The translations under genes and the position numbers were made by a program. Under the pieces are notes generated by a model that saw nothing but the letters and a program-made list of their open reading frames with translations, searched no databases and was not told the DNA's origin. DNA of 64,000 nt from an uncultured virus (IMG/VR IMGVR_UViG_3300046822_000192) (lineage: Duplodnaviria > Heunggongvirae > Uroviricota > Caudoviricetes), in IMG/VR virus record IMGVR_UViG_3300046822_000192, one strand, 5' to 3'. Of this stretch, positions 808 through 58,045 are shown one piece after another; within the stretch, counting starts at the first letter, position 1, and each line of letters opens with the position of its first letter.

Positions 808-817
808 GCAAAAGATA

Positions 818-1873: not shown

Positions 1874-1970
1874 ATCAATTACCTCCGGAAAATAGCGCGG
1901 CTTCGTTGGCCGTGCAGAGCTAATCATAGACCTAGGTCTCTCTGGTAATAGAGGCATGATATGTTACACT

Positions 1971-16569: not shown

Positions 16570-16570
16570 G

Positions 16571-17097: not shown

Positions 17098-17160
17098 GAG
17101 CTGTGTTATACTCCGTTCCGTTCGCGGAGTCAAGTCAAATCGAAAGGTTCCCTTTCTCGC

Positions 17161-22441: not shown

Positions 22442-23433
22442 CAACAGCACGAATTCTCATACCGCCCGGTATTGGTGATATCTATTGGGTCCTCGTGAAG
22501 CTCCGCGCCTTTCTGAAATCTAAAGGTATCGACAGAGCCGAGCTGACAATGGTAACCGATCCGCACGAGCACGACTCGCATTTGAGAGCGCTGCCATACC
22601 TGCAGATGTTTGATTGGTTTGACGTTAGCGACATAGTCACAGTACCGAATGACCGGCAGAATGTGGATATCTGGCAAGAAGCATATCTCGGGCCAGGACG
22701 CTCTATCTTTGAAAATGTTCAGGGTTACGATTACTTTCTGTGCTATAACGGGCGTATCAATTCCGGTGGATTTATCGAGACGGATGAACTGGCATGCGAA
22801 TGGCAACCGCAAATGTCTCCTATCGCGGAGAAAGTAATTAATCAATATGCTGCCGAGTATGCCAGTCTCCCATCTTATTTCAAAGATCGTCCCGGCCAAG
22901 GCTATATGGTTCTGTTTTGGCCTTTCTATGGAGACCATCTGCACACATTGGCGGACTTCTCTATCAAAGAGATAGCCGAAGTATTGAATGCCTTCCGGGA
23001 TCGTACGCGCCTAATTCCTATATTCATTGGAGCGGCATTCGACAAGATCTACAATACAGCACTGCAGGATCTAGTCGATCTTGTACCATGTTCCTGTAAC
23101 TGGACCGGAGAATTAACGCTACATGAGACGCTTGGATTGATAAAGTCTGCCGGTATGGTAACTGGTTATCACTCCGGTATCACCAATCTTGCTGCCGCAA
23201 TGGGCGTCAAAACGTGCTTATTGTGGGGTGACAGGTATCCGAGTACTACCTCATGGGCCGTTGTTCCGCCAGACTCCCGAGGTACTAACTATCTAGCACT
23301 GGAGAGTGTTGGATTGGCAGCAGAGACGTATTTCTATACCTTAGCGGGGTTGTATGGCGGGCCTTTCATCGAAAAAATATCTCCACGTCCGGGCGATCCA
23401 TGGTATAAAGATCCGGCAATTGAAGGAGTTTAG
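22438..23433 (+). CDS. GT9-like glycosyltransferase, paralog of 19037-20230
   Basis: PPGIGDIYW; HSGITNLAAAMGVKTCLLW. Confidence 0.7.
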   Translation: MTTARILIPPGIGDIYWVLVKLRAFLKSKGIDRAELTMVTDPHEHDSHLRALPYLQMFDWFDVSDIVTVPNDRQNVDIWQEAYLGPGRSIFENVQGYDYFLCYNGRINSGGFIETDELACEWQPQMSPIAEKVINQYAAEYASLPSYFKDRPGQGYMVLFWPFYGDHLHTLADFSIKEIAEVLNAFRDRTRLIPIFIGAAFDKIYNTALQDLVDLVPCSCNWTGELTLHETLGLIKSAGMVTGYHSGITNLAAAMGVKTCLLWGDRYPSTTSWAVVPPDSRGTNYLALESVGLAAETYFYTLAGLYGGPFIEKISPRPGDPWYKDPAIEGV

Positions 23434-23434
23434 A

Positions 23435-24400
23435 TTGTTACCGACAGACCTACTACTTGAAGCGTACGAGCGGATGCTGACAATTCGCAGAGTTGAAGAG
23501 CGCATCGCAAAAGACTTTCTGGAGAATAAGATCTTCAGTTTCTATCACAGTTCTGCGGGCCAGGAAGCCGTGGCAGTTGGTGTCGCCCTGAATATGTCGG
23601 ATAACGATCGTATGTTCGGCAATCACCGCTCGCATGGGCACTATCTCGCCAAAGGTGGATCAATAAGTGGTCTATTTGCGGAGATCTACGGCAAGGCTAC
23701 AGGCTGCTGTAAAGGCTATGGCGGCTCAATGCATATGCTGGCTCGCGACAAAGGTTTCATGGGCACCACACCGATCCTGGGGAGTATAGCGCCCATCGGT
23801 ACTGGCAGCGCATTCCAACAGAAGGTTGCCGGTACAAAGGATGTTACTGTTGTGTTTGTCGGGGATGGCGCTACCGAAGAGGGTGCATTCTATGAGAGTG
23901 TGAACCTCGCAGCAACCATGAAACTTCCGATTGTATTTGTGATTGAAGATAATTTATATGCTGTCAATTCGCCGGAGTCTGCCCGGCGCTCACCGCTGTT
24001 TATTCGTAAGTTTGTTTACGAGGGTCTCGGTGCCCGCTACTTGATGTGCGACGGAAATGACTTCACAAATGTTTTCAGTCAAGCTGGCATGCTGATCAAA
24101 GCTGCGCGTAACGGTAAACCCGGCGTACTCTACGCTAGATGTTTCCGGCATATGTCGCACTCGGGACCGCTCAAGGATGAAAGTGTGCGTACTGTGGATA
24201 CGGAAGATGTTCGCAAGAAAAATGATCCTATCGAATTACTCCGGGATTCTATGCTGGAAGCCAGCATAGGAACTGTCGAAGATTTCGAATTGATCGACGA
24301 TCGGATTTCCGCGTACGCAGATTCTATCTTGAGTCAAGTTCCGGATCTACCGGTACGGCGCGGCACTGAGATTTTTGAAGGAGTCTATCATGACGCGTAA
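23435..24400 (+). CDS. TPP-dependent dehydrogenase E1 alpha-like subunit
   Basis: GQEAVAVG, HRSHGHYLAKG, GGSMH, GDGA..EG...N; TTG start after AAGGAG. Confidence 0.9.
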   Translation: MLPTDLLLEAYERMLTIRRVEERIAKDFLENKIFSFYHSSAGQEAVAVGVALNMSDNDRMFGNHRSHGHYLAKGGSISGLFAEIYGKATGCCKGYGGSMHMLARDKGFMGTTPILGSIAPIGTGSAFQQKVAGTKDVTVVFVGDGATEEGAFYESVNLAATMKLPIVFVIEDNLYAVNSPESARRSPLFIRKFVYEGLGARYLMCDGNDFTNVFSQAGMLIKAARNGKPGVLYARCFRHMSHSGPLKDESVRTVDTEDVRKKNDPIELLRDSMLEASIGTVEDFELIDDRISAYADSILSQVPDLPVRRGTEIFEGVYHDA

Positions 24401-25424
24401 ATTTACAGAAGCTATCCAGCTGGCTACACGGTCTGTTATGGAAGAGGATTCCAGTGTTCATGTTCTCGGACTTGGCGCAAACTATCCTAATGGTCTGGAC
24501 GGCACAATGGGTGATATTGCCGAGACCTTTCACGACCGTGTACATGATACACCTTGCAGTGAGAACGCTGTTACTGGTATGGCAGTAGGCATGGCAATCT
24601 CCGGTTTACGTCCGATCGTCCATCACGGACGAATCGAATTCGCTCTACATGCCATGGATCAGATTATCACGCAAGCTGCGAAGTGGAATTACATGTTCGG
24701 CGGGAACTATCCGTGTCCGTTGACGCTGCGCATTGCAATGGGCCGTCAATGGGGAAATGGACCGCAGCATACACTGTCCTATAAAGGGCTGTTCTCTGTA
24801 CCAGGACTTCAAGTAGTATGCCCATCCACCCCGCAGGCAGCATATTCGTTACTGCAAGCTGCTGTAGAGAATCCGAATCCGGTAGTATTTCTCGAATCAC
24901 GCTGGCTATACAAGACTCAAGGGACGATTATTAACACGTCCATGTTAATTAACAAGGCCATGATAATGCGCAGTGGTACAGACCTGACTATTGTGGCGGC
25001 AGGCGAGTTTGTCCTGGAAGCCTTACGTGCTGCAAAGGTACTTGGTGAGCATGGTATTTCGGTGGAAGTTATCGATCTTGTATCTGTCTACCCAATCGAC
25101 ATGGAGACTCTTCGCGAGTCTGTCGGTAAGACCGGCAAGTTGATGGTGATCGATTCTACATCCCAGTTTGCGATGGAAATTGCGGCGCGTGCCAATGTTC
25201 AAGGAGCTTCCGTGGTGACTCTGTCGTGTGTAGAATCGCCGTGCCCTACTGCTCCGTCTATGTCAGACTCGTACTATCCAACAGATCAGGATATTATCGG
25301 TGCGGTAAGCCAGTGGTTCGGTAAGTTTGATATCCCAGTCCTGGAAAAGACATTTGCGGAATTGAATCTTGCACCTACAGATAACTTTGACGAACTATAT
25401 GGAATCGATACAACGTCCGATTAA
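24390..25424 (+). CDS. TPP-dependent dehydrogenase E1 beta-like subunit
   Basis: DTPCSE, GLRPI, AMDQI, GPQH, NPVVFLE, EVIDL. Confidence 0.9.
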   Translation: MTRKFTEAIQLATRSVMEEDSSVHVLGLGANYPNGLDGTMGDIAETFHDRVHDTPCSENAVTGMAVGMAISGLRPIVHHGRIEFALHAMDQIITQAAKWNYMFGGNYPCPLTLRIAMGRQWGNGPQHTLSYKGLFSVPGLQVVCPSTPQAAYSLLQAAVENPNPVVFLESRWLYKTQGTIINTSMLINKAMIMRSGTDLTIVAAGEFVLEALRAAKVLGEHGISVEVIDLVSVYPIDMETLRESVGKTGKLMVIDSTSQFAMEIAARANVQGASVVTLSCVESPCPTAPSMSDSYYPTDQDIIGAVSQWFGKFDIPVLEKTFAELNLAPTDNFDELYGIDTTSD

Positions 25425-25749
25425 GCACGATAAGGGCTGGGGCTATGAATTGTGGATAGCCAATTCCCCGTTATACTGCGGTAAAGTTCTAGTGTTCAAT
25501 GCTGGCAAAGCCTGCAGCATGCACTTTCATCTTTTGAAACATGAAACATTCTTCCTGGAAAGTGGTCGTATTTCAGTGGAAATTCTGGAAGATGGAGTGC
25601 TTAGTACGCGACATATGGAGCCGGGGGATTCTATGGAGATTCCTCCCGGCACGATGCACAGAATTTGGGCAACTGAAGCAAGCCGCCTGTTCGAATTCAG
25701 TACGCAGCATTTCGAGACAGACAGCTATAGAATTGCGCGAGGCGATTGA
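25399..25749 (+). CDS. Cupin, sugar isomerase-like
   Basis: KGWGYE, CSMHFHLLKHETF, IPPGTMHR. Confidence 0.8.
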   Translation: MESIQRPIKHDKGWGYELWIANSPLYCGKVLVFNAGKACSMHFHLLKHETFFLESGRISVEILEDGVLSTRHMEPGDSMEIPPGTMHRIWATEASRLFEFSTQHFETDSYRIARGD

Positions 25750-26501
25750 TGTTATACCCGTGCGGTTCATCTAAACCGCCTAAAATAGAACACGGATCTC
25801 CGGCCAACAAAGGACAGGCATCACTGATCACAGGTGCCTCCAGCGGTCTCGGTCGCGAACTTTCCATTTTGTTTTCCAACATCGGCCATGTTATCCTCTC
25901 CGGCAGGAACAAAGTTGAGCTGGAAAAGACGGCAAGCTTATGCAAAGATCCTCACAACACGACATGCATTTACGGCGACTTGCACGACTCCGCAATTCAA
26001 GCACGCTTGGCGTATACTGGAGATTTGTACGGGATTCGATATCTGATTTTGTGCGCCGGTATCTACCAGCGAGCGCCGCTCATCGAATCGAGAATACTGT
26101 TACCCGGCCCGAGACATTCAATCGAACAGATGTTCGAGACCAACGTACTCGGTCACATTCAGCTTATTGAATCTCTGCATAATGTTCTGATACGCGGAGC
26201 TGTAGTCAATATCAACTCTCTCAGCGGGAAGTCATTTTCTCCCAGCGAGGCTGTCTATTCAGCTACCAAACACGCCATGGCTGGGTTCCTGAAAGCCTAC
26301 CGGATTGAGGCGCGTCATCGGCTTACTCGTGTGCTTGACGTGTTTCCTGGGGCTATCCAGACGCCAATGCTTGCCGGGCAGACGAACTATGAGAAAGCGA
26401 TGCTGCCGGTCGAGGTCGCCAAAACAATCTTCACAGTAGCTACCCTGGAATATCCGTCCTTGCAGATCGAAGAATTACATCTTGGAAGATTTATCTTGTA
26501 A
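25749..26501 (+). CDS. Short-chain dehydrogenase/reductase
   Basis: TGASSGLG, YSATK, PGAIQTPM. Confidence 0.9.
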   Translation: MLYPCGSSKPPKIEHGSPANKGQASLITGASSGLGRELSILFSNIGHVILSGRNKVELEKTASLCKDPHNTTCIYGDLHDSAIQARLAYTGDLYGIRYLILCAGIYQRAPLIESRILLPGPRHSIEQMFETNVLGHIQLIESLHNVLIRGAVVNINSLSGKSFSPSEAVYSATKHAMAGFLKAYRIEARHRLTRVLDVFPGAIQTPMLAGQTNYEKAMLPVEVAKTIFTVATLEYPSLQIEELHLGRFIL

Positions 26502-26533
26502 AGTGTTGTCAATTGTGATAACATTCTCTTCTC

Positions 26534-26764
26534 ATGTGGCGAAAAGGTGAAATCCCGATAGATCAAGCACAAGTTGTCGCGTTATTGAAAAGTCAGCAGG
26601 GTGATCAATCTCTGCGGGCGTTCTCCAGCCAGCTTGGCGTACAGCCTGCCTATCTCTGCCGTCTCTATCAAGGCACTAGACCGGTCAATACGACGGTGTT
26701 GGACTTTCTAGGTTACGAGCCGCAAATAATTTACACAAAGAAGTGGCGAAATGACAATTCATAG
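26534..26764 (+). CDS. Small HTH protein
   Basis: SLRAFSSQLGVQPAYLCRLYQG. Confidence 0.7.
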   Translation: MWRKGEIPIDQAQVVALLKSQQGDQSLRAFSSQLGVQPAYLCRLYQGTRPVNTTVLDFLGYEPQIIYTKKWRNDNS

Positions 26765-26942
26765 AAACGAAATTATGCATCATTATCTGTGCACGTGTGT
26801 ACGCTGCAGACCGTATTTGTATCACTATCCGTATCCACACTGGTTACCGTATCCGGTATATCCAGTGCCGGTGCCGGTCTGTGTTCCAATTCAAGTTCCA
26901 GTCCCAATATTCATTCCGGCGAGACCGGAGAGATGGAGATAA
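26751..26942 (+). CDS. Pro/Tyr-rich small protein
   Basis: YHYPYPHWLPYPVYPVPVPVCVP; fills gap between two genes. Confidence 0.5.
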   Translation: MTIHRNEIMHHYLCTCVRCRPYLYHYPYPHWLPYPVYPVPVPVCVPIQVPVPIFIPARPERWR

Positions 26943-26946
26943 AATT

Positions 26947-27639
26947 ATGGCAAAGAAGAGCATTAAAGTTGCGCCAAAACAGCGCGTGCTTGTAGATTTC
27001 ATTCAAGACCGTTCCGGTTCTATGTGCTCTACATGGAAGGATTGTTTGGGAGGGTTCGCCTCGTTTATCGAGGATCTGCGCAAGAATCCCGAAGTGGAAT
27101 ATCTTATTTCACTTACAGCATTTGATACCACTGTAGACAGAATCTACACAGCAATTCCATTGGGCAAAATCAACCCGGCTATTTTGGAAGATTACGGGCC
27201 GCGTGGCGGAACTGCTCTCTATGACGCTTTGGGAGACACGATTCTAGCAACAGAAACCGCTGAAAGTTTTGTTGACAAAGTCATCTATATCATTGTTACA
27301 GATGGCGAAGAGAATGCGAGCAGGCGCTTTGCAAAAGACATTGCATCGCTGGAATACCAGAGTCTCCACACTTTAATTGACCGGAAAATCCGGGAAGGTA
27401 AATCTACATTTCAGTATATCGGTGCACAGCCGGAGAGCTGGACGGATGCTAAGGCAATTGGATTGTCAGCCGGGCAGACCGTGCGGTATGATCTCGGAAG
27501 TACCGGTGCGATGTACGGGGCAATAGCGTCCGGAGTCAACAACTTCTCATGTTCAGCGTTCCGCTCGACACAGAGTATGACAGCCGACTTTGCAGATGAA
27601 ACACTGATCAAAGCTGCAAATCTCACTGTCAGTAAGTGA
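26947..27639 (+). CDS. von Willebrand factor A domain protein
   Basis: MIDAS DRSGS, GGTALYDA, IVTDGEENAS. Confidence 0.9.
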   Translation: MAKKSIKVAPKQRVLVDFIQDRSGSMCSTWKDCLGGFASFIEDLRKNPEVEYLISLTAFDTTVDRIYTAIPLGKINPAILEDYGPRGGTALYDALGDTILATETAESFVDKVIYIIVTDGEENASRRFAKDIASLEYQSLHTLIDRKIREGKSTFQYIGAQPESWTDAKAIGLSAGQTVRYDLGSTGAMYGAIASGVNNFSCSAFRSTQSMTADFADETLIKAANLTVSK

Positions 27640-28441: not shown

Positions 28442-28840
28442 CGTAAATATCTGCTTGATCCTGCAACCGAAACCGGTTCCGGGCTGCTTCTTGACAGACG
28501 AGTAAAGCTCTTTATACGTCTCAGCTCTCTCCTTCTCGACAGTGGACTCACGCTCCGCAGCGGTAGTCAAAGCTTTCTGAGCATCCAGTTCTTTGGCACT
28601 CAGAGCCTGCTCACGCACTTCAAACTGCTTCTCCCGGTCCAAAGCATCATTCGTCGTCGAAAGCTTCGTGGTGACCTGTTCCAGCTGAATTAACTGGATA
28701 AGGATTTCACGCAACTCTTCGGACGTCAGCGGTTTATTGTCCTGGGGTAATGCTGGGGATGGCTGTTGCGATAGCCCGGTTGCGTACAACTTGGGCACGA
28801 ATAGCATCAGGCAAATCAGAAACAGGCACTTGTAACGCAT
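28415..28840 (-). CDS. Exported coiled-coil protein, probable outer spanin component
   Basis: N-terminal hydrophobic signal; start embedded in the i-spanin 3' end; no clean lipobox. Confidence 0.5.
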   Translation of the reverse strand: MRYKCLFLICLMLFVPKLYATGLSQQPSPALPQDNKPLTSEELREILIQLIQLEQVTTKLSTTNDALDREKQFEVREQALSAKELDAQKALTTAAERESTVEKERAETYKELYSSVKKQPGTGFGCRIKQIFTLGLGRCGE

Positions 28841-32598: not shown

Positions 32599-32964
32599 TT
32601 AGATGACAACTTCAAGCCGCCGATCTGAACTACCTGCAACGAATTGTCGAATTGCCTTATTCTGCACAATACAACCCTCACTAGCGTTTCCAGGATCAGC
32701 AATCGAATCCCCGTGTATACGGAATAGCGATCGGTCACACATATCATTGGAGGCATCCGGCGTCAAATTCATGCATACCGGTCCCTTAGTTTCGTGCTTG
32801 TAAGCCGGACCGATCGTGTAAAATCCGCGAGGTAGAGGACCTTCACCTTTTATACACTGAGCCGTGGGATTATTTTTATATAAACCCTTGCCAGCATATC
32901 CGTGACCTGTAACAGTTCTGTCCGCTGATATTAAAATTCCAGTCGATTGTGAGTATGTCCACAT
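32599..32964 (-). CDS. Tlde1/DUF2778-family L,D-peptidase-like protein, candidate endolysin
   Basis: YSQSTG, GYAG, NNP, GPLPRGFYTIG, FRIHGD...ASEGCI. Confidence 0.8.
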   Translation of the reverse strand: MWTYSQSTGILISADRTVTGHGYAGKGLYKNNPTAQCIKGEGPLPRGFYTIGPAYKHETKGPVCMNLTPDASNDMCDRSLFRIHGDSIADPGNASEGCIVQNKAIRQFVAGSSDRRLEVVI

Positions 32965-51341: not shown

Positions 51342-53510
51342 TTAGTTAGTACCTCTCTGTGCGTTCTTGCTGGTCTGAACTGCAAAGTCCACACCCTTAA
51401 CTCCGGGCTTTGCCAAGAGAATAGTCGGAGCAATTGCAATCTCTTCAGCATTTTCAATGCGTGCGCCAGCGGCGACACGGAAAGGCGAAGTGGTATTCGG
51501 TACCAACATTGCCAAGGTCTTATCGAGCGATGCTTCGCTGAAAGCTGCAAGCTCTTCCTGCGTGAAAGTGTTACCGTTCACAGCCAGGATCTGTGTGATC
51601 TTGTTTGCACGAGTCGCCTTCTGCGCATTCGTCACACTCTTAACTGATGCAAGCTCTTCCTCGGACAGACCGAGAGTGGCCATCATCACTTCTTTTGTAA
51701 TAGTTGGCGCAACCGGGGCTACGACTGCTGCAACATTCTGCACTGGGGCCGTTACCGGAGCTGCAACTGCAGGATCTGCTACCACAGCCAAGTCGAGCAA
51801 TTCGAGATCTGCATCGGCCATAGCCGTCAGTTGAACACGGTGAGCTTCGGTGAACTTGTTCTTGTTCGAAGCGATCAGCCCGTCAACCTTAATTTTCTTC
51901 TGCTCTGGAGTCATGTTGTTAAGAACCTCTTTCGAATCGTCAGACTTAATTATTCCTAAAGTCTGCAGAATTTCTTTGATCTTCACCGTCAGCGACTTTG
52001 CGCAAGGTGCACAAGTACCAGTTCCTGACTGCTCGATTTCATGATTATCGGGTATGGTCACGCCTGTGCCATCATTTGTTGCAACTATTTTCTTAGCTGC
52101 ATTCGCTGCCATTGCCATATCACCCTCACCGGCATCGTCGATATCAGGCGCGTCATAGCGAGCGTCACAGTTATCATTACTTGCTGCCATCTGCATATCA
52201 AATGGATCAATATCCAGAATTGCTGCCCAGATAGCTAGCCACTGTCGCGGAACAAAATCAATCTTACCGGCAACAATCTGAGACATAGTAGCGGCATCGA
52301 TATCGGCTGCCTGCGCGAGATCTGCGATTGTTTCATCAGAGCCGGTTTCGTTGGCGTAGCACTCTAAAGCACCCTGAAGGACTGCTGCGAGCTGTGAGCC
52401 ATTTACCTTGATACCAACAGCCTGATTATTTTTTGTATCCATTTGAAATTCAGACTTGAGAAGTGCACGCGCTTCATTTTGAGCCGATGTAATTGCACTT
52501 GCCGGGATACTTGCCTGAGATCCTCTACCGCTAATAACTGCGAGTAGGGCACCCTTATTCAATTTTCCAGTGCCAGGATTAACTACAGGGAAAAAAATAA
52601 GATCGCGGAGAGTCGTAGCACTAGCTTCCCCAAGAAGAGTTTTGGAAGCAATCCACTTCTTCATACCATCAGAGGCATCATTGATTGAACTGGGAACACT
52701 GTCCGAAGAGTTAGTTGACTTGATGTATGCACGCGCATAAGCACCAAAGCTCTTATCTACAGCTCCCCATGATGACGTTTCGGTACCACTAAAAGAAGGG
52801 TGACGTGCCTTGGATGCAACATTGTAAGTAACAGCGGCTGTAGCCATAGTGTTCAAATTTACAGCATAGTCATCCGTTTGTTGATTTATTCTCGGAGCAC
52901 CGCAGCCATCTTTCCAGCTACATGCCCCTTCATCGTTCGGGAGAAGAGCTAAATGATCCGGCTTAAGTTGGACTTGCACACCGGTATACTTCTCTTCTGC
53001 ACCGGTACGAGGATTGATAAATACACCCTTCGTATTGTCTACAAAAGTGTAATAGCCGGTAGAAACTTCAAGAGGTTGCCCGGCTTGAAGTAGCTGTACG
53101 ACCTTACTCCCGCCAGGAACAGTCTCAGCTTTAACTAAATCAATCCACAACTCGCCCGATATACCGCGAATATCCTCACGCGCCTGTACATTGAACAAGA
53201 AACCGACCACAGAACTTTCCATGACTGTAGGACTGCCAGCCGTAACAGGTTCGTTATTGGCATCCATCGGATGAGTAACAGGTAATGGACGCCCATTCCA
53301 AATATCGGCATAAGGGCTAACTAACTCTTCGTAAGATACATACTCGCCATTGTGCACACCTTCGACTATCGGTGTGACAGGTGCGACTAGATAATCTTTT
53401 CCATCCAATTTCTCTGTACGTATGAGATCTTGTCGTCCTTCAAGTACGGAAAAGTTAGAATTGCGGAGTTGTGCTTTTTTGCTTGTCACTTTTTCGCTTG
53501 TCACAGCCAT
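51342..53510 (-). CDS. Prohead protease/scaffold (DUF2213 type)
   Basis: WNGRPLPVTHP, LEVSTG, PDHLALLP..GACSW.DGCG. Confidence 0.85.
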   Translation of the reverse strand: MAVTSEKVTSKKAQLRNSNFSVLEGRQDLIRTEKLDGKDYLVAPVTPIVEGVHNGEYVSYEELVSPYADIWNGRPLPVTHPMDANNEPVTAGSPTVMESSVVGFLFNVQAREDIRGISGELWIDLVKAETVPGGSKVVQLLQAGQPLEVSTGYYTFVDNTKGVFINPRTGAEEKYTGVQVQLKPDHLALLPNDEGACSWKDGCGAPRINQQTDDYAVNLNTMATAAVTYNVASKARHPSFSGTETSSWGAVDKSFGAYARAYIKSTNSSDSVPSSINDASDGMKKWIASKTLLGEASATTLRDLIFFPVVNPGTGKLNKGALLAVISGRGSQASIPASAITSAQNEARALLKSEFQMDTKNNQAVGIKVNGSQLAAVLQGALECYANETGSDETIADLAQAADIDAATMSQIVAGKIDFVPRQWLAIWAAILDIDPFDMQMAASNDNCDARYDAPDIDDAGEGDMAMAANAAKKIVATNDGTGVTIPDNHEIEQSGTGTCAPCAKSLTVKIKEILQTLGIIKSDDSKEVLNNMTPEQKKIKVDGLIASNKNKFTEAHRVQLTAMADADLELLDLAVVADPAVAAPVTAPVQNVAAVVAPVAPTITKEVMMATLGLSEEELASVKSVTNAQKATRANKITQILAVNGNTFTQEELAAFSEASLDKTLAMLVPNTTSPFRVAAGARIENAEEIAIAPTILLAKPGVKGVDFAVQTSKNAQRGTN

Positions 53511-53674
53511 AGACGATAGAGTAATATCACGCCATGTATCTGTTCAGGAGAAGTGTGAATAACAAAATTAGTTTATGCATGAAATAATCATAAAGATACT
53601 TTACGGAATACTAATTGGCTGCGGCGTGGGGATTCCGTTGTTTTTTGTCTGGTTTGTTTTTTGTGAGAGAACGT

Positions 53675-54334
53675 GTGACTGATCTCGAAGAGAAACAATT
53701 CTTACAAGCGTTACGGGCTAGAATCGTAGCAGCAGCGGATCAATCAACATACGATCATCGCCCGTTTATGATCCCGGAAGTTGTGCAGAAATTCCCGCAC
53801 ATGTCAGACGAAGAACAGTTGCAATATTCGCGGTTCAAATTGGCAGTTGCACGTATACTGCAGCCGTATACGATCTATGAAGTTGGAGTTGGCTGGGGTG
53901 TATCGGCGCAGGCATTCCTTGAAGGATATCCGGACACTAAATTCTTCGGAATAGATAACATGGCTATGGGAGTTGACCCGAATAGGGCGGTTTTATATAA
54001 TCCCTTATTACCGTGCCGGGTTGTGGACTCTGCCGATCTGGATGAATTTGTACATCCAGACGGTCCAATCGATCTCTTGCACATCGACGGCGGGCATGCA
54101 CTAGAGCATAAAGCCGATGACATGGTCCGGGCATTTAAATCAAAACCTGAATGGATTCTGATTGATGACTGTCACGACGTCATGGTAGCTGCTGGCGTCT
54201 TTGCCGGGATCTACCGCGCCGGTCGTAACGCATTATCTATGATGTACTTCGAGAATTCACACACTGGAAATCTTTTGATCCACGCCAAGCGTAGAGAACC
54301 TGAATTTCGTGGCCTGGAATGTAAACGAGTTTGA
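53675..54334 (+). CDS. Class I SAM methyltransferase (Methyltransf_24-like)
   Basis: IYEVGVGWGVS, IDLLHIDGGH, ILIDD. Confidence 0.8.
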   Translation: MTDLEEKQFLQALRARIVAAADQSTYDHRPFMIPEVVQKFPHMSDEEQLQYSRFKLAVARILQPYTIYEVGVGWGVSAQAFLEGYPDTKFFGIDNMAMGVDPNRAVLYNPLLPCRVVDSADLDEFVHPDGPIDLLHIDGGHALEHKADDMVRAFKSKPEWILIDDCHDVMVAAGVFAGIYRAGRNALSMMYFENSHTGNLLIHAKRREPEFRGLECKRV

Positions 54335-54338
54335 AACA

Positions 54339-54911
54339 ATGCATATCAGTTATTCGGCAATGGATCGCTTCCTACAGTCTCGCTGCGGGCAGCCGTGGGA
54401 TAAAGTATACTCAGAAATACGCAAACGAGATCTCTTCACATTCTGGCGTAGAATGTACCCGCACGATCACCTGCCTGTAGCCGAGAAAACCTATACAGGT
54501 GCCGATGGACATATCTACGGGTGCGGATGGCAAGGAGTCCATCGTATCGGCGGGGCTAACTGGACACGATACAGCTTTTATGTCGATCAAGCTGGCATCC
54601 TGCGTAGCCGGGCTAAATTGCGATTGGAATATAAACGGGAACAATCGGCCAAAAGAACGGCCAAATCTGTCGATAGAATACCGGCTAGCGGAAACTGCAC
54701 ATACGTTAAAGAAAATGGAATCTGGTACTTGGAAACGAAATCCGTTCTTACTTACACCTATAGACATCCGGCCATAGATCCGGTCACGGGTGAAAAAAAC
54801 TCCAAGCTGGACACTGTCGATAAGATAATCGTTAGGAAAAAACAACTCAATAAAAAGGAATTGAAACAGTTATGTCAGATGCAATTGACTGTCTCGACAC
54901 GAACGAGATAG
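54339..54911 (+). CDS. Conserved hypothetical protein
   Basis: RFLQSRCGQPWDKVYSEI...FYVD..GIL. Confidence 0.7.
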   Translation: MHISYSAMDRFLQSRCGQPWDKVYSEIRKRDLFTFWRRMYPHDHLPVAEKTYTGADGHIYGCGWQGVHRIGGANWTRYSFYVDQAGILRSRAKLRLEYKREQSAKRTAKSVDRIPASGNCTYVKENGIWYLETKSVLTYTYRHPAIDPVTGEKNSKLDTVDKIIVRKKQLNKKELKQLCQMQLTVSTRTR

Positions 54912-55060
54912 TATGCCCATACTGCGGCTATGAATTTTCCGAATCATGGACATACTTTGAGTCCTCTGGTAATGAAGAAAAAATACAATGTCCAGAATGC
55001 GATCAAAAATTTACTTGTTCGCCAGACTACACTGTGACATACTACTCTCGTAAGTTATAA
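54872..55060 (+). CDS. Zn-ribbon protein
   Basis: CPYCG...CPEC. Confidence 0.75.
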   Translation: MSDAIDCLDTNEIVCPYCGYEFSESWTYFESSGNEEKIQCPECDQKFTCSPDYTVTYYSRKL

Positions 55061-55062
55061 AC

Positions 55063-55140
55063 GGGCGTGAGAATGGCTTCGACGGCAAGTAAGCCCTACA
55101 AGGAACTTGTCGGACGCGGGATCGATACCCGCCACGTCCA
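55063..55140 (+). ncRNA. Mini-tmRNA: tRNA-like domain only, no tag ORF
   Basis: Acceptor GGGCGTG/CACGTCC with G3.U70 and A73; stemless D-loop AGAATGGCTTCGAC; helix GGCAAGT/ACTTGTC; GGAC; T-arm GCGGG-ATCGATA-CCCGC. Confidence 0.85.
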
Positions 55141-55145
55141 CTTTT

Positions 55146-55259
55146 ATGATTGTCAAAGTCTATATGAGATCAGCAGATGATTGGAGTTACGAAGAATGGA
55201 TGGCAGCACAAACTCAAGAAGATCTTAATGAGGAAGATGAGCCAGGAACCTGCTTTTAA
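55146..55259 (+). CDS. 37-aa acidic peptide (MIVKVYMRSADDWSYEEW...)
   Basis: Short ORF; first 6 codons identical to the 55390 gene. Confidence 0.4.
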   Translation: MIVKVYMRSADDWSYEEWMAAQTQEDLNEEDEPGTCF

Positions 55260-55389
55260 AGGCATCTTAAATCACTTTATCTGCTTTTGAAAGCACTAAC
55301 GCTAATGGGCGAAACCTCATGACCACCTCACTCGTTGTTATGAGGCTGGTAGGCAGCGTGTACTTACCGGACCGGCTCAGGTAGGAAAT

Positions 55390-55779
55390 ATGATTGTCAA
55401 AGTCTATCGTAATCTCAAACACGGACGGTCGGCAGCCCCGCTGTATTCAGTATTATACAAAGGAAAAGTGATTGCCAGGAAACACAGAGTCCTACTCCGT
55501 GATGCGCATTTCATTGTCAATGAAGCTGGTAGGCGGCGTGTACTCGAAAGCGGACATAAAAATGTGCATGCTTTTGTCGTCGGAACCTTAACAAATGAAC
55601 ATGGATGTTTCGGTATAGATGCCGATGGAAATGATTTTAGAATGCGCGTAACTTACGACCCGCGAAAAGGCCCGCACTTCGTTACAGCAACGGCTCCGGT
55701 AGGAAGAATTGTAAAAAGTGCTCTCGGCGTACTGCTGAATGAGCGTGGTATCAGCGCCTGCTATCTGGAAACTGCTTGA
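55390..55779 (+). CDS. Conserved phage hypothetical protein
   Basis: VYRNL...VNEAGRRRVL..GHKNVHAFVVG...VTYDP; AGGA RBS. Confidence 0.8.
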   Translation: MIVKVYRNLKHGRSAAPLYSVLYKGKVIARKHRVLLRDAHFIVNEAGRRRVLESGHKNVHAFVVGTLTNEHGCFGIDADGNDFRMRVTYDPRKGPHFVTATAPVGRIVKSALGVLLNERGISACYLETA

Positions 55780-55979
55780 AATATATAAATCTGACAGTAC
55801 GCGATAATCTTCCAGAATCTAGCGTAGATGTCTACGATACAGATACAAAAGAGCTATTACGCAGATATCCTTTACATCTTATCCATTCTGGGTACTGGCA
55901 CGCTACACAGAACGACCTTGCTCGACTCGCCTCGGTACGTATACCAGACCGGCTCAACGAATGCAAACTCTGGTGCTGA
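55776..55979 (+). CDS. Hypothetical protein
   Basis: Overlaps upstream stop. Confidence 0.45.
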   Translation: MKYINLTVRDNLPESSVDVYDTDTKELLRRYPLHLIHSGYWHATQNDLARLASVRIPDRLNECKLWC

Positions 55980-55989
55980 AAATTTCTTG

Positions 55990-56017
55990 TTGACTTTGCC
56001 GGACGTTGTGGTATAGT
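55990..56017 (+). promoter_or_regulatory. sigma70-type promoter of leader + tRNA operon
   Basis: TTGACT-16-TATAGT with extended TG. Confidence 0.7.
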
Positions 56018-56148
56018 TCTTATCAATGCAGCAAACAAGCTGCAGAAACTTAAGCGTAAAAACGTCGCTATCAATGGCGTATTGGGTAAGGGCGGCACCG
56101 GCATATTTCCGGCCCGCCCGAACCGCTTAAGTTTGAAAAAGAGACGAT

Positions 56149-56274
56149 ATGAAGAACACATCTACAATTCGAACAGCAAGACTTCAGTCGTCACAGCTCC
56201 ATTCCTATCCACAGCACCCGCTGTTGCCTTGCTCGCAAAGCTGGCTGAGTTTACCTCAGTCCTTTAGCCTGTAA
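56149..56274 (+). CDS. Putative leader (attenuator) peptide of the tRNA operon
   Basis: MKNTSTIRTARLQSSQLHSYPQHPLLPCSQSWLSLPQSFSL; last 30 codons use only amino acids served by the array. Confidence 0.85.
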   Translation: MKNTSTIRTARLQSSQLHSYPQHPLLPCSQSWLSLPQSFSL

Positions 56275-56313
56275 GGCTAGCCTGCAAATCGGGCATATTC
56301 AAATTTAAATCAC

Positions 56314-56387
56314 GCTCCAGTAGTCCAATTGGCAGAGGCGTCTCATTCAAAATGAGAATGTTGGGGGTTCGAATCCCTTCTGGAGTA
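56314..56387 (+). tRNA. trnL: tRNA-Leu(CAA), short variable loop
   Basis: TCTCA-TTCAAAA-TGAGA; 5-nt V loop; A73. Confidence 0.85.
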
Positions 56388-56398
56388 TTAATTAGTTC

Positions 56399-56474
56399 CG
56401 GGCAGTAGCTCCAAATTTGGTAGAGCGGCAGATTGAAACCCTGCGCGTTGCTGGTTCGAGTCCAGCCTGCTCGA
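56399..56474 (+). tRNA. trnF: tRNA-Phe(GAA)
   Basis: Loop TTGAAAC; acceptor CGGGCAG/CTGCTCG. Confidence 0.85.
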
Positions 56475-56478
56475 CTTT

Positions 56479-56565
56479 GTCCTAGTAGACCCGTACGGCG
56501 CGGGGGCGCACTGTAAATGCGTTGTCCCTTTGTGGACCCAGTCGGTTCGATTCTGACCTAGGGCA
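56479..56565 (+). tRNA. trnY: tRNA-Tyr(GTA)
   Basis: GCGCA-CTGTAAA-TGCGT; long V arm. Confidence 0.9.
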
Positions 56566-56569
56566 CTTT

Positions 56570-56654
56570 GGAGAGTCCGGCATTGGTGCGCCAAGCACGT
56601 TGGAAGCGTGTGGCCGACTAAACTCGGTTAGAGATTCAATTTCTCTACTCTCCG
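56570..56654 (+). tRNA. trnS: tRNA-Ser(GGA)
   Basis: GCACG-TTGGAAG-CGTGT; long V arm; G73. Confidence 0.9.
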
Positions 56655-56657
56655 CTT

Positions 56658-56739
56658 GGTAACGCAGCCATTGGTGAAGCAAATTGTTTCGAAAACAGTG
56701 CTCCTCCGGGAGTTTAGAGTTCAAATCTCTACGTTACCG
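56658..56739 (+). tRNA. trnS: tRNA-Ser(CGA)
   Basis: ATTGT-TTCGAAA-ACAGT; long V arm; G73. Confidence 0.9.
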
Positions 56740-56828
56740 CTGCCCTTAATGGGACATGCACTCGTATCCTGTACCATCCGTATCCGCAAGGTCTGATGGT
56801 TGTGCCGGGAAAAAGCAGTGATATTTGA

Positions 56829-56916
56829 TGCCACGTGGCGGAATTGGCCCAACGCTCGCAGTACGTAACTGCGCAACCGATATATCGGTATGAAGTTTCG
56901 AACACTTCCGTGGCAA
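56829..56916 (+). tRNA. Atypical class II tRNA, identity undetermined (loop TACGTAA)
   Basis: TGCCACG/CGTGGCA; CGCAG-TACGTAA-CTGCG; long V arm; GAAGT-TTCGAAC-ACTTC. Confidence 0.75.
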
Positions 56917-56922
56917 GTTTTT

Positions 56923-57011
56923 GGAAGCATGGCTGAACGGCTAAAGCACCGGCTTTGAATACCGGCGAGACGTTGAGAGACGTCGTACGAGTTCGAATCT
57001 CGTTGCTTCCT
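56923..57011 (+). tRNA. trnS: tRNA-Ser(TGA)
   Basis: Loop TTTGAAT; long V arm; U73. Confidence 0.9.
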
Positions 57012-57015
57012 CTCT

Positions 57016-57100
57016 GGCCTTGTGGTGAAATTGGCAAACGCAGCAGCTTCAGAGGCTGCCGCTCATTACGAGCTTAAGGGTTCGATTCCCTTCAGGGCCA
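57016..57100 (+). tRNA. trnL: tRNA-Leu(CAG)
   Basis: GCAGC-TTCAGAG-GCTGC. Confidence 0.92.
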
Positions 57101-57103
57101 CTT

Positions 57104-57185
57104 GCTCTCATGCTGGAAATGGCAGACAGCTACGCCTGAGAAGCGTAGGTCGAGAGACGTAAGGGTTCGATTCCCTTTGAGAGCA
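57104..57185 (+). tRNA. trnL: tRNA-Leu(GAG)
   Basis: TACGC-CTGAGAA-GCGTA. Confidence 0.92.
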
Positions 57186-57190
57186 CTCAC

Positions 57191-57273
57191 GGTCCTGTGG
57201 CGGAATTAGGCAGACGCGCCAGACTTAGAATCTGGTGCCTTCGGGTGTGAGGGTTCGATTCCCTCCGGGACTA
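57191..57273 (+). tRNA. trnL: tRNA-Leu(TAG)
   Basis: CCAGA-CTTAGAA-TCTGG. Confidence 0.92.
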
Positions 57274-57276
57274 CTT

Positions 57277-57349
57277 GTACGGTTGCCGGAATGGTTAACG
57301 GGCTGGTCTGCAAAACCAGCTTCTAAGGGTTCGATCCCCTTACCGTACT
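57277..57349 (+). tRNA. trnC: tRNA-Cys(GCA)
   Basis: CTGGT-CTGCAAA-ACCAG; U73. Confidence 0.92.
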
Positions 57350-57352
57350 CTT

Positions 57353-57424
57353 AGGCGTGTAGTTCAGCGGCAGAACGGTTGCCTTTGAAGCAACTAGTCA
57401 TCGGTTCGAGTCCGATCGCGCCTT
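57353..57424 (+). tRNA. trnQ: tRNA-Gln(TTG)
   Basis: GTTGC-CTTTGAA-GCAAC. Confidence 0.9.
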
Positions 57425-57428
57425 CTTT

Positions 57429-57517
57429 ACGGACGTGGCTGAGTGGTCGAAAGCTCCGGATTCCAAACCCGGATGACTGTAATAGTCGCATCGTGTGTCC
57501 GAATCACACCGTCCGTG
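57429..57517 (+). tRNA. trnW: tRNA-Trp(CCA) with long variable arm
   Basis: Loop TTCCAAA; A1-U72, G73; 20-nt V region; T-loop TCCGAAT. Confidence 0.8.
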
Positions 57518-57522
57518 CTTAT

Positions 57523-57595
57523 GCCGAGGTAGCCTTAATGGTAGAGGTGGCGCACTGTGAATGCGTCTGTCAGAGTTCGAATCTCTGTCTCGGTA
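57523..57595 (+). tRNA. trnH: tRNA-His(GTG), no G-1, A73
   Basis: GCGCA-CTGTGAA-TGCGT. Confidence 0.9.
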
Positions 57596-57599
57596 CTTC

Positions 57600-57687
57600 G
57601 GAAGAGTGTCCGGAATTTGGTCAACGGACCTGACTGCTAATCAGGCGACGAGTAATCGTCATGGAGGTTCGAGTCCTCTCTCTTCCG
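57600..57687 (+). tRNA. trnS: tRNA-Ser(GCT)
   Basis: CCTGA-CTGCTAA-TCAGG; long V arm; G73. Confidence 0.92.
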
Positions 57688-57695
57688 CTTTTAAT

Positions 57696-57780
57696 GCCCT
57701 TGTGGTGGAATTTGGTAGACGCGGTCGGCTTAAACCCGGCTATCCTTCGGGATATCACGGTTCGAATCCGTGCAGGGGCA
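57696..57780 (+). tRNA. trnL: tRNA-Leu(TAA)
   Basis: GTCGG-CTTAAAC-CCGGC. Confidence 0.92.
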
Positions 57781-57785
57781 CTCAT

Positions 57786-57861
57786 CGTGACGTATAGAAG
57801 TCTGGTTTTTCTAACCGGTCCTGGAAACCGGCAAGCGCAGGTTCGAATCCTGCCGTCACGA
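57786..57861 (+). tRNA. trnP: tRNA-Pro(TGG), C33 and A37
   Basis: CCGGT-CCTGGAA-ACCGG; C1-G72, A73. Confidence 0.85.
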
Positions 57862-57866
57862 CTTAT

Positions 57867-57942
57867 AGCGTAGTGCGGAAGTCTGGTCATCCTTCCTGCT
57901 TCGGAAGCAGGCAATTCGTGGGTTCAAATCCCACCTACGCTA
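57867..57942 (+). tRNA. trnP: tRNA-Pro(CGG)
   Basis: CCTGC-TTCGGAA-GCAGG. Confidence 0.88.
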
Positions 57943-57946
57943 CTAT

Positions 57947-58019
57947 GGGGGCATAGCAAAGTCTGGCAATGCATCCGGCTCTGACCCGGACATCGGAGGT
58001 TCAAATCCTTCTGCCCCTT
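57947..58019 (+). tRNA. trnQ: tRNA-Gln(CTG)
   Basis: TCCGG-CTCTGAC-CCGGA. Confidence 0.9.
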
Positions 58020-58045
58020 CTTACACTAACTGCCTACGATAATTT

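What the first reader, a model, noticed from the sequence alone, without database searches (positions are those of the whole stretch)
55063..55140. 78-nt mini-tmRNA: tRNA-like domain with no mRNA-like domain
Seen: GGGCGUG-AGAAUGGCUUCGAC-GG at the 5' end and GGAC-GCGGG-AUCGAUA-CCCGC-CACGUCC-A at the 3' end match tmRNA termini in length and motif (E. coli, from memory: GGGGCUG-AUUCUGGAUUCGAC-GG ... GGAC-GCGGG-UUCAACU-CCCGC-CAGCUCC-A). It has G3.U70 and A73 for alanylation and a stemless D-loop. Helix 2a (GGCAAGU/ACUUGUC) is closed by only about 14 nt, so the pseudoknots and tag ORF are absent. It ends in the same N73-CT trailer as the array tRNAs. Established: SmpB binds the TLD; tag-less tmRNAs occur in jakobid mitochondria; phage tmRNAs I know of are full length. 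Inference: an SmpB decoy or competitor that prevents ssrA tagging and proteolysis of phage proteins on stalled ribosomes, or a tag-free rescue RNA. Either would complement the tRNA operon 1.2 kb downstream.
Basis: partly seen in the sequence, partly recalled or inferred. Interest (0 to 1): 0.9.

Follow-up and report, generated by a model that had tools for sequence, protein, structure and literature searches.

The report
Phage tag-less mini-tmRNA gene
This soil phage carries a real 78-base gene for only the alanine-accepting, tRNA-like end of the bacterial ribosome-rescue RNA (tmRNA), a type already known from mycobacteriophage DS6A that probably competes with the host's rescue-and-tag system.

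Summary
Window 55063-55140 (+) scores 57.5 bits against Rfam tmRNA (cut-off 47, E 7e-20). Both tRNA-like halves align and 306 central model positions are replaced by 12 nt. It has a 7-bp acceptor stem with G3.U70, A73, the UUCGAC/GGAC core, a 7-bp helix 2a closed by 14 nt, and a T-arm. There is no tag frame.

It belongs to a family. A covariance model built from such elements in uncultured phages finds 21 distinct sequences, including the published "TLD only" tmRNA of mycobacteriophage DS6A. In these, 99.7% of cells are paired, 10 of 17 pairs show compensatory changes, and G3.U70 is kept in 21 of 21.

The kind is already in print (PMC4131195, PMC11915505, both citing Mao et al. 2009). A similar RNA inhibits tmRNA in E. 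coli, perhaps by titrating SmpB.

I found no SmpB, no second tmRNA, no integrase and no RNA-seq data.

Verdict: a new member of a known kind, of moderate interest. Side observation: the most similar elements found (71% identity) lie in TerY-P-like VWA/kinase/PP2C operons of Lentisphaeria.

The parts
55063..55140 (+). TLD-only (tag-less) tmRNA gene, 78 nt, from G1 to the discriminator A73
   Evidence: Rfam RF00023 57.5 bits, cut-off 47. Own model R1 72.2 bits. Identical in three IMG/VR contigs.
55063..55069 (+). Acceptor stem, 5' strand GGGCGUG. G3 (55065) forms the G.U pair with U70 (55137).
   Evidence: 7 of 7 pairs with 55133-55139. The G3.U70 pair is GU in 21 of 21 family members.
55070..55083 (+). 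Stemless D-loop analogue AGAAUGGC plus the conserved UUCGAC core
   Evidence: Aligned to the conserved consensus positions of RF00023. UUCGAC is invariant in alignments A1 and A2, though partly forced by the search pattern.
55084..55111 (+). Helix 2a (GGCAAGU / ACUUGUC, 7 bp) closed by a 14-nt cap, AAGCCCUACAAGGA, with an inner 3-bp CCU/AGG hairpin. It stands where the pseudoknots and tag frame of a full tmRNA would be.
   Evidence: Helix 2a pairs covary across the family. RNAalifold also predicts the apical 3-bp hairpin.
55112..55132 (+). GGAC junction and T-arm GCGGG-AUCGAUA-CCCGC. The T-loop is unusual, with A at its first and last positions.
   Evidence: The same T-loop type occurs in other phage tmRNAs, both full-length and mini, and in Lentisphaeria minis.
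55133..55143 (+). Acceptor stem 3' strand CACGUCC, discriminator A73 (55140), and trailer CTT. CCA is not encoded.
54872..55060 (+). Upstream 62-aa zinc-ribbon-like ORF whose stop codon ends 2 nt before the RNA
   Evidence: phrog_6504, E 1.4e-10. Only sub-threshold zinc-ribbon Pfam hits.
55145..55389 (+). Spacer holding decayed pieces of the downstream gene: a 19-nt exact repeat of its start, and about 45 nt resembling 55510-55555
   Evidence: local alignment score 46; 200 shuffles gave mean 22.6, maximum 34.
55390..55779 (+). Downstream gene, Phage_L5_gp82 family, function unknown
   Evidence: PF25735 E 2e-24. phrog_586. No informative PDB or Atlas match.
56314..58020 (+). Array of 17 tRNA genes on the same strand, none for alanine. 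15 of 17 have an N73-C-T trailer.

Best explanation
The element is a phage gene for a TLD-only (tag-less) tmRNA. Inferred steps, none shown here: it is transcribed with the + strand block that runs from about 53.6 kb into the tRNA array. It is cut out like a tRNA, by RNase P at G1 and by 3' trimming after A73, followed by CCA addition by a host enzyme. AlaRS charges it with alanine through G3.U70 and A73. The host's SmpB binds it through the conserved UUCGAC/GGAC core. It then competes with the host's full-length tmRNA for SmpB, EF-Tu and stalled ribosomes. Because it has no resume codon, tag frame or stop codon, the net effect is fewer ssrA degradation tags on proteins made in the infected cell. 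What is shown here is the sequence, the structure, the family conservation and the phage context. Inhibition of tmRNA by a similar RNA in E. coli was shown elsewhere (Mao et al. 2009, known to me only as cited).
For: Identity: Rfam tmRNA 57.5 bits over a cut-off of 47, with both TLD halves aligned.

Family and selection: model R1, built from 10 such elements, finds 21 distinct sequences at E<=1e-9, including the published DS6A element at JN698994 28478-28557 (55.8 bits). On that alignment 99.7% of 353 cells pair. 10 of 17 pairs change on both sides. The covariation score is 0.476 against 0.102 in shuffles (0 of 500 reach it) and at most 0.065 when partners are slid. RNAalifold on the unfitted MAFFT alignment A2 predicts the same three helices plus an apical hairpin, with 11 of 21 pairs showing compensatory change.

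Charging seems to be under selection: G3.U70 is GU in 21 of 21 while four of the other acceptor pairs (4-7) covary. A73 is present in all 14 distinct viral sequences and in DS6A.

Phage context: terminase, portal, capsid, tape measure and major tail protein genes are present.

Dependence on the host: no SmpB was found in 78 window ORFs or in three near-identical viral records, one of which by my coordinate arithmetic reaches about 16 kb past the window.

Literature: the DS6A TLD-only form, and inhibition of tmRNA by a similar molecule 'perhaps by titrating SmpB', appear in PMC4131195 (passages) and PMC11915505 (passages).
Against: There is no expression, processing, charging or SmpB-binding evidence for this element, and no RNA run holds it. 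The host is unknown: the best cultured-phage matches are about 35% identical terminase and capsid proteins of Brevundimonas phages. As cited, Mao et al. found inhibition whether or not the RNA could be charged. Strict retention of G3.U70 is therefore not explained by pure SmpB titration and hints at a role on the ribosome. The T-loop departs from the tmRNA consensus (A instead of U at its first and last positions), with unknown effect. The family was retrieved with a pattern that fixed UUCGACG, GGACG and the GGG/CCC of the T-stem, and alignment A5 is fitted to the model, so conservation of those positions is partly built in. Some phages need host trans-translation, so inhibiting it is not obviously beneficial (recalled, not checked).
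Confidence: 0.55

Rival explanations
1. It is an active tag-free rescuer. Ala-TLD with SmpB enters stalled ribosomes and accepts the nascent chain, adding one alanine, or several over repeated rounds. The ribosome is then freed by ArfB/ArfA-type factors, drop-off or a further round. Phage proteins made from broken mRNAs thus escape the degradation tag while ribosomes are still recycled.
For: G3.U70 and A73 are strictly kept (21 of 21), which a pure SmpB sponge would not need. A review (PMC3929946, passages) reports that SmpB with a TLD fragment supports polyalanine synthesis in vitro without mRNA (Shimizu and Ueda 2006). PMC11915505 argues that CDS-less mitochondrial tmRNAs still help with incomplete mRNAs, and reports natural tmRNAs whose tags are only Ala-Ala.
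Against: No release step is encoded, since there is no stop codon. No ArfA, ArfB or Pth-like gene was seen among the window ORFs scanned. A C-terminal alanine tail might itself be a degron. Nothing was tested here.
Confidence: 0.25
2. It is a decoy or mimic aimed at a host defence or conflict system that reads a tmRNA-like RNA, rather than at trans-translation itself. Candidate systems are those with SmpB-like domains, or TerY-P-type VWA/kinase/PP2C modules.
For: The most similar elements found (67-71% identity, same 78-nt length, same A...A T-loop type) lie in Lentisphaeria MAG contigs inside operons of VWA, kinase-like and PP2C genes. They are co-oriented with those genes and multi-copy. The CoCoNuT preprint (PMC10542128, passages) predicts SmpB-like tmRNA-binding domains in defence systems that usually include TerY-P triads. 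It cites Gao et al. 2020 for TerY-P-like modules acting as stand-alone antiphage systems.
Against: The 71% identity is only slightly above that to other family members (up to 65%). No VWA, PP2C or kinase gene lies in the window. PADLOC models did not recognise the Lentisphaeria genes as a known defence system. The host of this phage is unknown. The link is by association only.
Confidence: 0.08
3. It is a non-functional remnant: a recent internal deletion of a full-length phage ssrA that has not yet decayed.
For: Phages do carry full-length tmRNAs with very similar TLDs. XacN1's two-piece tmRNA has the identical acceptor stem. Viral contigs L080 and L081 carry 316- and 356-nt tmRNAs with the same T-loop type. 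No sister phage was found for this window, so local history is unknown.
Against: The deleted region is replaced by a tidy capped helix. All pairs and identity elements are intact. At least 21 distinct sequences of similar size (67-81 nt) in unrelated phage and MAG contexts keep the same architecture through compensatory changes. A variant contig from another sample differs at 4 listed places in the upstream ORF, and none is listed in the RNA (about 3x depth, so weak).
Confidence: 0.07
4. It is an attP-type fragment of host ssrA, or a degenerate tRNA-Ala.
For: Phages often integrate into ssrA and carry its 3' end (PMC11915505, PMC9004378, passages).
Against: Both the 5' and the 3' halves are present and pair perfectly. 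No integrase was found among 61 proteins scanned with PHROGs or 78 scanned with Pfam. ARAGORN reports no tRNA or tmRNA here, and Rfam's best match at the locus is tmRNA rather than tRNA. The permuted tmRNA model scores 15.8 bits against a cut-off of 47.
Confidence: 0.02

Closest known systems
'TLD only' (CDS-less, standard-form) tmRNA of Mycobacterium phage DS6A (JN698994 28478-28557; tmRNA Website entry named in PMC4131195 and PMC11915505)
   Same: It is phage-borne and about 80 nt long. It has a complete acceptor stem with G.U at pair 3, A73, a T-arm and a helix 2a capped by a short hairpin. It has no tag frame and does not encode CCA. My model R1, built without it, detects it (55.8 bits).
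   Different: It is only 57.5% identical to the window element. DS6A's core reads GUCGAC/GCAC and its T-loop is the usual UUCGAUU. Its host is an actinobacterium. DS6A is temperate, with a tyrosine integrase, whereas no integrase is seen in this window. The element is unannotated in the DS6A record.
Full-length phage tmRNAs: cluster C mycobacteriophages such as Bxz1 (PMC4131195), the two-piece tmRNAs of Xanthomonas phage XacN1 and OM43 phage Melnitz (PMC9004378)
   Same: They are phage-encoded, have the same TLD and often lie near tRNA genes. XacN1 has the identical acceptor stem GGGCGUG/CACGUCC.
   Different: They keep a tag reading frame and the surrounding structure. The window element has none.
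CDS-less organellar tmRNAs: jakobid and other mitochondria (Rfam RF02544) and the ~65-bp Mallomonadaceae plastid forms (PMC11915505)
   Same: They have lost the tag frame yet are conserved, and are presumed to act with SmpB.
   Different: They are organellar, mostly permuted and AT-rich, with a different evolutionary origin. No RF02544 match was listed for the window, though clan competition shows only the best family.
Laboratory TLD fragments used with SmpB in vitro and in crystals (Shimizu and Ueda 2006; Bessho et al. 2007; both as cited in PMC3929946)
   Same: The design is the same: the 5' and 3' ends of tmRNA joined by a short loop. These fragments bind SmpB and support peptidyl transfer and polyalanine synthesis.
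   Different: They are artificial constructs. The window element is a natural phage gene with an unusual T-loop.
Multi-copy TLD-only RNAs in TerY-P-like operons of Lentisphaeria
   Same: Same 78-nt length, same GAGAA(A/U)GG D-loop analogue and same T-arm with an A...A T-loop. They are 67-71% identical to the window element.
   Different: They are chromosomal (next to cysS), tandem or multi-copy, and embedded among VWA, kinase-like and PP2C genes. Their helix 2a and cap sequences differ.

Membership tests
tmRNA (Rfam RF00023) | Score at or above the curated gathering threshold, with both termini aligned | tested here: met
   57.5 bits against 47, model positions 1-374.
tmRNA (Rfam RF00023) | tRNA-like domain: 7-bp acceptor stem with G3.U70, discriminator A73, T-arm, and the UUCGAC/GGAC core that forms the SmpB site | tested here: met
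   One deviation: the T-loop is AUCGAUA where the Rfam consensus has U at the first and last loop positions.
tmRNA (Rfam RF00023) | mRNA-like domain: resume codon, tag reading frame ending in a stop codon, and flanking pseudoknots | tested here: not met
   306 model positions are replaced by 12 nt. ARAGORN finds no tmRNA or tag peptide in the window. No second tmRNA was found in the window or in record G006, which by my coordinate arithmetic extends about 16 kb further.
tmRNA (Rfam RF00023) | Alanylation by AlaRS, SmpB and EF-Tu binding, entry into stalled ribosomes | not testable with these tools
   Only the sequence determinants can be read.
TLD-only / CDS-less standard-form tmRNA (DS6A type) | Complete TLD in standard (unpermuted) order, with helix 2a closed by a short cap and no tag frame | tested here: met
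   The permuted model scores only 15.8 bits against 47.
TLD-only / CDS-less standard-form tmRNA (DS6A type) | One structural model covers both this element and the published prototype | tested here: met
   R1 scores the window at 72.2 bits and DS6A at 55.8 bits. Structure is supported by covariation.
TLD-only / CDS-less standard-form tmRNA (DS6A type) | Carried by a phage genome | tested here: met
   Terminase, portal, capsid, tape measure and major tail protein genes lie in the window. Three IMG/VR viral contigs are near-identical.
TLD-only / CDS-less standard-form tmRNA (DS6A type) | Inhibits host tmRNA function when expressed | not testable with these tools
   Known only for 'a similar molecule' in E. 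coli (Mao et al. 2009, as cited in PMC4131195 and PMC11915505). That paper is not held.
tRNA (Rfam RF00005) | Cloverleaf with D-arm and anticodon arm | tested here: not met
   ARAGORN makes no tRNA call here. The Rfam match listed at this locus is tmRNA, not tRNA (overlapping clan members are hidden). There is no D-stem or anticodon arm.
Two-piece (permuted) tmRNA (RF04321) | Acceptor piece precedes the coding piece in the gene | tested here: not met
   15.8 bits against 47. The 5' and 3' halves are in standard order.

The most novel reading that the evidence does not exclude
The phage RNA is not merely an SmpB sponge. One possibility is that it is a working alanine-only rescue RNA that adds untemplated alanine to stalled chains. 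Another is that it mimics the tmRNA-like RNAs that sit inside TerY-P-type VWA/kinase/PP2C operons, such as those found here in Lentisphaeria, which would make it an anti-defence decoy. That would tie TLD-only RNAs to conflict systems that monitor translation. My evidence excludes neither reading. The invariant G3.U70 argues for a ribosome-level role, and the shared odd T-loop links the element to the operon RNAs.
Probability: 0.12. Interest if true: 0.75.

Novelty: new member of a known kind. Interest (0 to 1): 0.35.

Why it matters
TLD-only tmRNAs show that phages interfere with, or short-circuit, the host's ribosome-rescue and protein-tagging pathway. In the papers I could search and read, the only experimental result mentioned is the 2009 E. 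coli inhibition experiment. This element is a clean, divergent example from a soil phage with a large tRNA array. Together with its relatives it shows that the architecture recurs and is under selection, including selection to stay chargeable with alanine. It adds no new principle. The more interesting lead is the side observation that related RNAs are built into bacterial VWA/kinase/PP2C operons.

Tried and rejected
Relatives of this phage:
- Megablast of 53000-57000 against cultured phages found no match.
- Neighbour-protein searches with the 200-aa ORF and the 721-aa head protein returned only three near-identical IMG/VR contigs.
- I therefore could not test whether sister phages carry a full ssrA at this site.

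Expression:
- No RNA holder was listed among 21 sequencing runs, all of which are soil or rhizosphere DNA.
- Laid contigs give no ends or strand information.

Partner proteins:
- SmpB (PF01668) was not found in the window ORFs or in three viral records that are only about 14-42% complete. Absence from the whole phage is therefore not shown.
- The gp82-like neighbour has no informative PDB match (best E 0.092) or Atlas match (its Atlas model has pLDDT 0.38).
- The AAA+ protein at 818-1954, which I first suspected to be ClpX-like, is ClpB/ClpC-D2-like. I dropped the link to ssrA-tag recognition.
- The flanking genes of the window element do not recur next to other minis.

Rfam and family membership:
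- The 401-nt local Rfam search gave a misleading truncated alignment.
- L012 from the pattern scan is a false positive (R1 gives only a partial 20.7-bit match).
- L005 and L010 have only 5 of 7 acceptor pairs and 1-2 bp of helix 2a. I left them out of A5.
- In genome contigs, 30 loci matched the pattern. Only 16 R1 matches had E<=0.001, and 7 of those scored 50 bits or more.

Literature and earlier notes:
- Mao et al. 2009 is not held, so its result is second-hand.
- Searches for an in-phage functional test of such an RNA found none.
- The notes index held nothing for this genome or this sequence.

Full report
**What is there.** The stretch 55063-55140 (+) reads as follows:
- acceptor strand GGGCGUG
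- an unpaired AGAAUGGC, then UUCGAC
- helix 2a strand GGCAAGU
- a 14-nt cap, AAGCCCUACAAGGA
- ACUUGUC, then GGAC
- T-arm GCGGG-AUCGAUA-CCCGC
- acceptor strand CACGUCC
- A73, followed by CTT

Rfam's tmRNA model (RF00023) matches 55063-55143 at 57.5 bits. Its gathering score is 47, and E is 6.8e-20 for the whole window. The alignment runs from model position 1 to 374, with 306 central positions replaced by 12 nt. ARAGORN reports 17 tRNAs at 56314-58020 but no tmRNA, tag peptide or tRNA at this site. The single-sequence fold gives the acceptor stem, helix 2a and T-arm (-30.7 kcal/mol, z -2.38). A 401-nt local Rfam search gave only a 12.6-bit truncated alignment and a 15.8-bit hit to the permuted model. 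I treat that as an artefact of the short input, because four full-context searches all give 57.5 bits. That includes the trailer: 15 of 17 array tRNAs have C-T after the discriminator, as does this element.

**Context.** The window is part of a tailed phage with terminase, portal, capsid, a 1556-aa tape measure and a major tail protein.
- Three IMG/VR contigs are near-identical. CheckV rates them 14-42% complete, so the genome is probably larger than the window.
- The DNA occurs in soil and rhizosphere metagenomes.
- No cultured relative is close. Megablast finds none, and the best terminase and capsid matches are about 35% identical, in Brevundimonas phages. The host is unknown.
- The RNA gene starts 2 nt after the stop codon of a 62-aa zinc-ribbon-like ORF. 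It lies on the same strand as the tRNA array 1.2 kb downstream.
- The only terminator-like site between 53.3 and 58.4 kb lies inside a tRNA. Co-transcription followed by tRNA-type processing is therefore the simplest inference, but it is not shown.
- No SmpB, integrase or recognisable CCA-adding enzyme was found among the ORFs scanned (61 by PHROGs; 78 by Pfam).
- No SmpB or second tmRNA was found in the viral records, one of which (by my coordinate arithmetic) reaches about 16 kb beyond the window.

**It is one of a family.** A pattern that demands the two TLD halves within 15-45 nt of each other found 18 loci in IMG/VR.
- One locus (L012) is a false positive.
- The rest give 14 distinct sequences, including the window's own. 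Twelve of them have a perfect 7-bp acceptor stem.
- All 14 have G at position 3 opposite U, all have A73, and all encode C74. Eight of 14 encode the full CCA.

A covariance model (R1) built from ten of them scores the window at 72.2 bits and the array tRNAs at 24 bits or less. R1 also detects the published DS6A element at JN698994 28478-28557, in the gap between gp33 and gp34, at 55.8 bits.

On 21 distinct sequences, the counts are:
- 99.7% of 353 cells form standard pairs.
- 10 of 17 pairs show changes on both sides.
- The covariation score is 0.476, against 0.102 +/- 0.020 in shuffles (0 of 500 reach it).
- With partners slid by 1-3 columns, the score is at most 0.065.

That alignment is fitted to the model. 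However, RNAalifold on the unfitted MAFFT alignment A2 predicts the same helices and an extra 3-bp apical hairpin, and 11 of 21 pairs show compensatory change. One caveat: the retrieval pattern fixed UUCGACG, GGACG and the GGG/CCC of the T-stem, so invariance there is partly built in. The acceptor stem and the rest of helix 2a were not constrained.

**What is known.** The kind is already in print.
- Hudson, Lau and Williams 2014 (PMC4131195, passages read) list 'Mycobacterium phage DS6A (TLD only)'. [quoted passage not shown] 2009).
- Nawrocki, Petrov and Williams 2025 (PMC11915505, passages read) count 9 'Standard, no CDS' and 72 'Permuted, no CDS' sequences among 97,179, of which 79 are from phages. 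They repeat the DS6A result.
- Mao et al. 2009 is not held, so I know it only through these citations.
- Four searches for a functional test of such an RNA during phage infection found none.
- Earlier notes of this scan describe eight other windows with phage TLD-only minis, all filed under the DS6A kind. They are AI notes. I re-derived the DS6A location and read the two papers myself.

**Mechanism.** Shown here: the sequence determinants for alanine charging (G3.U70, A73), the conserved core that forms the SmpB site in tmRNA, an EF-Tu-type acceptor/T-arm helix, and the absence of any template. Inferred: processing, CCA addition, charging, SmpB binding and competition with host tmRNA.

I favour competition with the host's tmRNA that lowers ssrA tagging (0.55). 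The closest molecule tested does exactly this.

The G.U wobble is kept in 21 of 21 sequences while pairs 4-7 of the same stem covary. A single U-to-C change would stabilise the stem, yet no sequence has it. This argues that charging is selected. A pure SmpB sponge would not need charging, according to the cited result.

That keeps the tag-free rescue reading alive (0.25). A review reports that SmpB plus a TLD fragment makes polyalanine without mRNA in vitro (PMC3929946, passages).

A recent non-functional deletion is unlikely (0.07), given the tidy cap and the family-wide conservation. I could not examine sister phages to test it.

**Peculiarities of this member.** The T-loop is AUCGAUA, with A at its first and last positions where the Rfam consensus has U. 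A scan for this T-arm type in IMG/VR found ten loci:
- three from the window's own phage
- two further minis (L074, L082)
- two full-length phage tmRNAs: L081 (356 nt, 115 bits) and L080 (316 nt, 50 bits)
- one tRNA (L079)
- two loci with no RNA-model match (L076, L078)

Between the RNA and the next gene (a Phage_L5_gp82-family protein) lie decayed pieces of that gene. These include an exact 19-nt repeat of its start, which looks like a recombination or duplication scar.

**Side finding.** The most similar elements I found (67-71% identity, 78 nt, same T-loop type) are not in phages. They lie in two Lentisphaeria MAGs.
- Each MAG also has a normal full-length tmRNA with the usual T-loop on another contig.
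- The minis are multi-copy and co-oriented with an operon in this order: AAA_33 P-loop protein, VWA, a kinase-like protein, mini, VWA, PP2C, VWA, and a degenerate mini-like RNA. The operon lies beside cysS.
- The kinase-like protein scores below threshold for Pkinase (22 bits against 31.7), but does so in two orthologues.
- A metagenome scan for this subtype found 12 loci, all of the Lentisphaeria type. One holds four tandem copies, one of them cut by the contig end.
- In 9 of the 12, at least one operon gene lies within 2.5 kb. That includes three divergent loci (L088, L090, L091) whose VWA homologue, and in two of them also the kinase-like gene, is only 45-54% identical.
- VWA + PP2C + Ser/Thr kinase is the 'TerY-P triad'. 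The CoCoNuT preprint (PMC10542128, passages) links TerY-P triads to defence systems with SmpB-like domains, and cites TerY-P-like modules as stand-alone antiphage systems.
- PADLOC did not recognise the Lentisphaeria genes as a known system.

This is association only. It is the basis of my most novel reading, that some TLD-only RNAs, perhaps including phage ones, act in or against such systems.

**Verdict.** This is a real, conserved, unannotated phage gene for a tag-less mini-tmRNA, and a new member of a known kind. Interest is moderate (0.35).

Noticed in passing
L063 (G002 contig 30) 9800-17900; L064 (G003 contig 62) 7100-16400; metagenome loci L083-L093: In Lentisphaeria MAGs and related metagenome contigs, multi-copy 78-nt TLD-only tmRNA genes sit inside a conserved operon. 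Its order is AAA_33 P-loop protein, VWA, a protein-kinase-like gene, mini, VWA, PP2C, VWA. This is a TerY-P-like triad next to cysS. The RNA-operon adjacency persists in loci whose operon proteins are only 45-54% identical. L091 has four tandem copies about 160 nt apart. Each MAG also has a normal full-length tmRNA elsewhere.
   Followed up: partly
window 55145-55389 versus 55389-55555: The spacer after the RNA holds an exact 19-nt copy of the start of the downstream gp82-like gene. It also holds a stretch of about 45 nt similar to an internal part of that gene. This looks like a decayed partial duplicate or a recombination scar.
   Followed up: partly
window 55121-55127; L074, L080, L081, L082: The T-loop type AUCGAUA/AUCGUUA (A at the first and last loop positions) recurs in phage tmRNAs, both full-length and mini. 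It is absent from the two host full-length tmRNAs examined. Its meaning is unknown.
   Followed up: partly
L080 (IMG/VR contig, 110 kb) 590-905 (-): This 316-nt phage tmRNA-like gene (Rfam 50.1 bits) has an acceptor stem that pairs G3 with C rather than U. It therefore lacks the alanine identity pair.
   Followed up: no
window 818-1954 (-): A stand-alone single-ring AAA+ protein resembles the second ATPase module of ClpB/ClpC (AAA_2 + ClpB_D2-small; best PDB match ClpC, E 3e-56). No ClpP-like gene was noticed among the ORFs scanned.
   Followed up: partly
window 15559-27636 (+): Between the portal gene and the tail genes the phage carries a long block of sugar- or metabolite-modifying genes. 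These include a zinc alcohol dehydrogenase, a glycosyltransferase/FkbM methyltransferase fusion, further methyltransferases, E1 dehydrogenase alpha and beta subunits, a cupin and a short-chain reductase.
   Followed up: no
window 32599-32961 (-): A 120-aa protein among the tail genes carries a Tlde1 domain (PF10908, E 1e-14), the family of type VI L,D-transpeptidase effectors.
   Followed up: no
L054 (G005 contig 175) about 1501-1580: An Achromobacter-labelled MAG contig has an 80-nt TLD-only element (Rfam 91.2 bits) between an MFS transporter gene and an acyltransferase gene, with no phage genes within 1.5 kb. RF00023 found no full-length tmRNA in that MAG.
   Followed up: no
L065/L066 (JN698994, phage DS6A): The published TLD-only tmRNA at 28478-28557 is not annotated in the GenBank record. 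The same phage encodes an RtcB-like RNA ligase (gp76).
   Followed up: no
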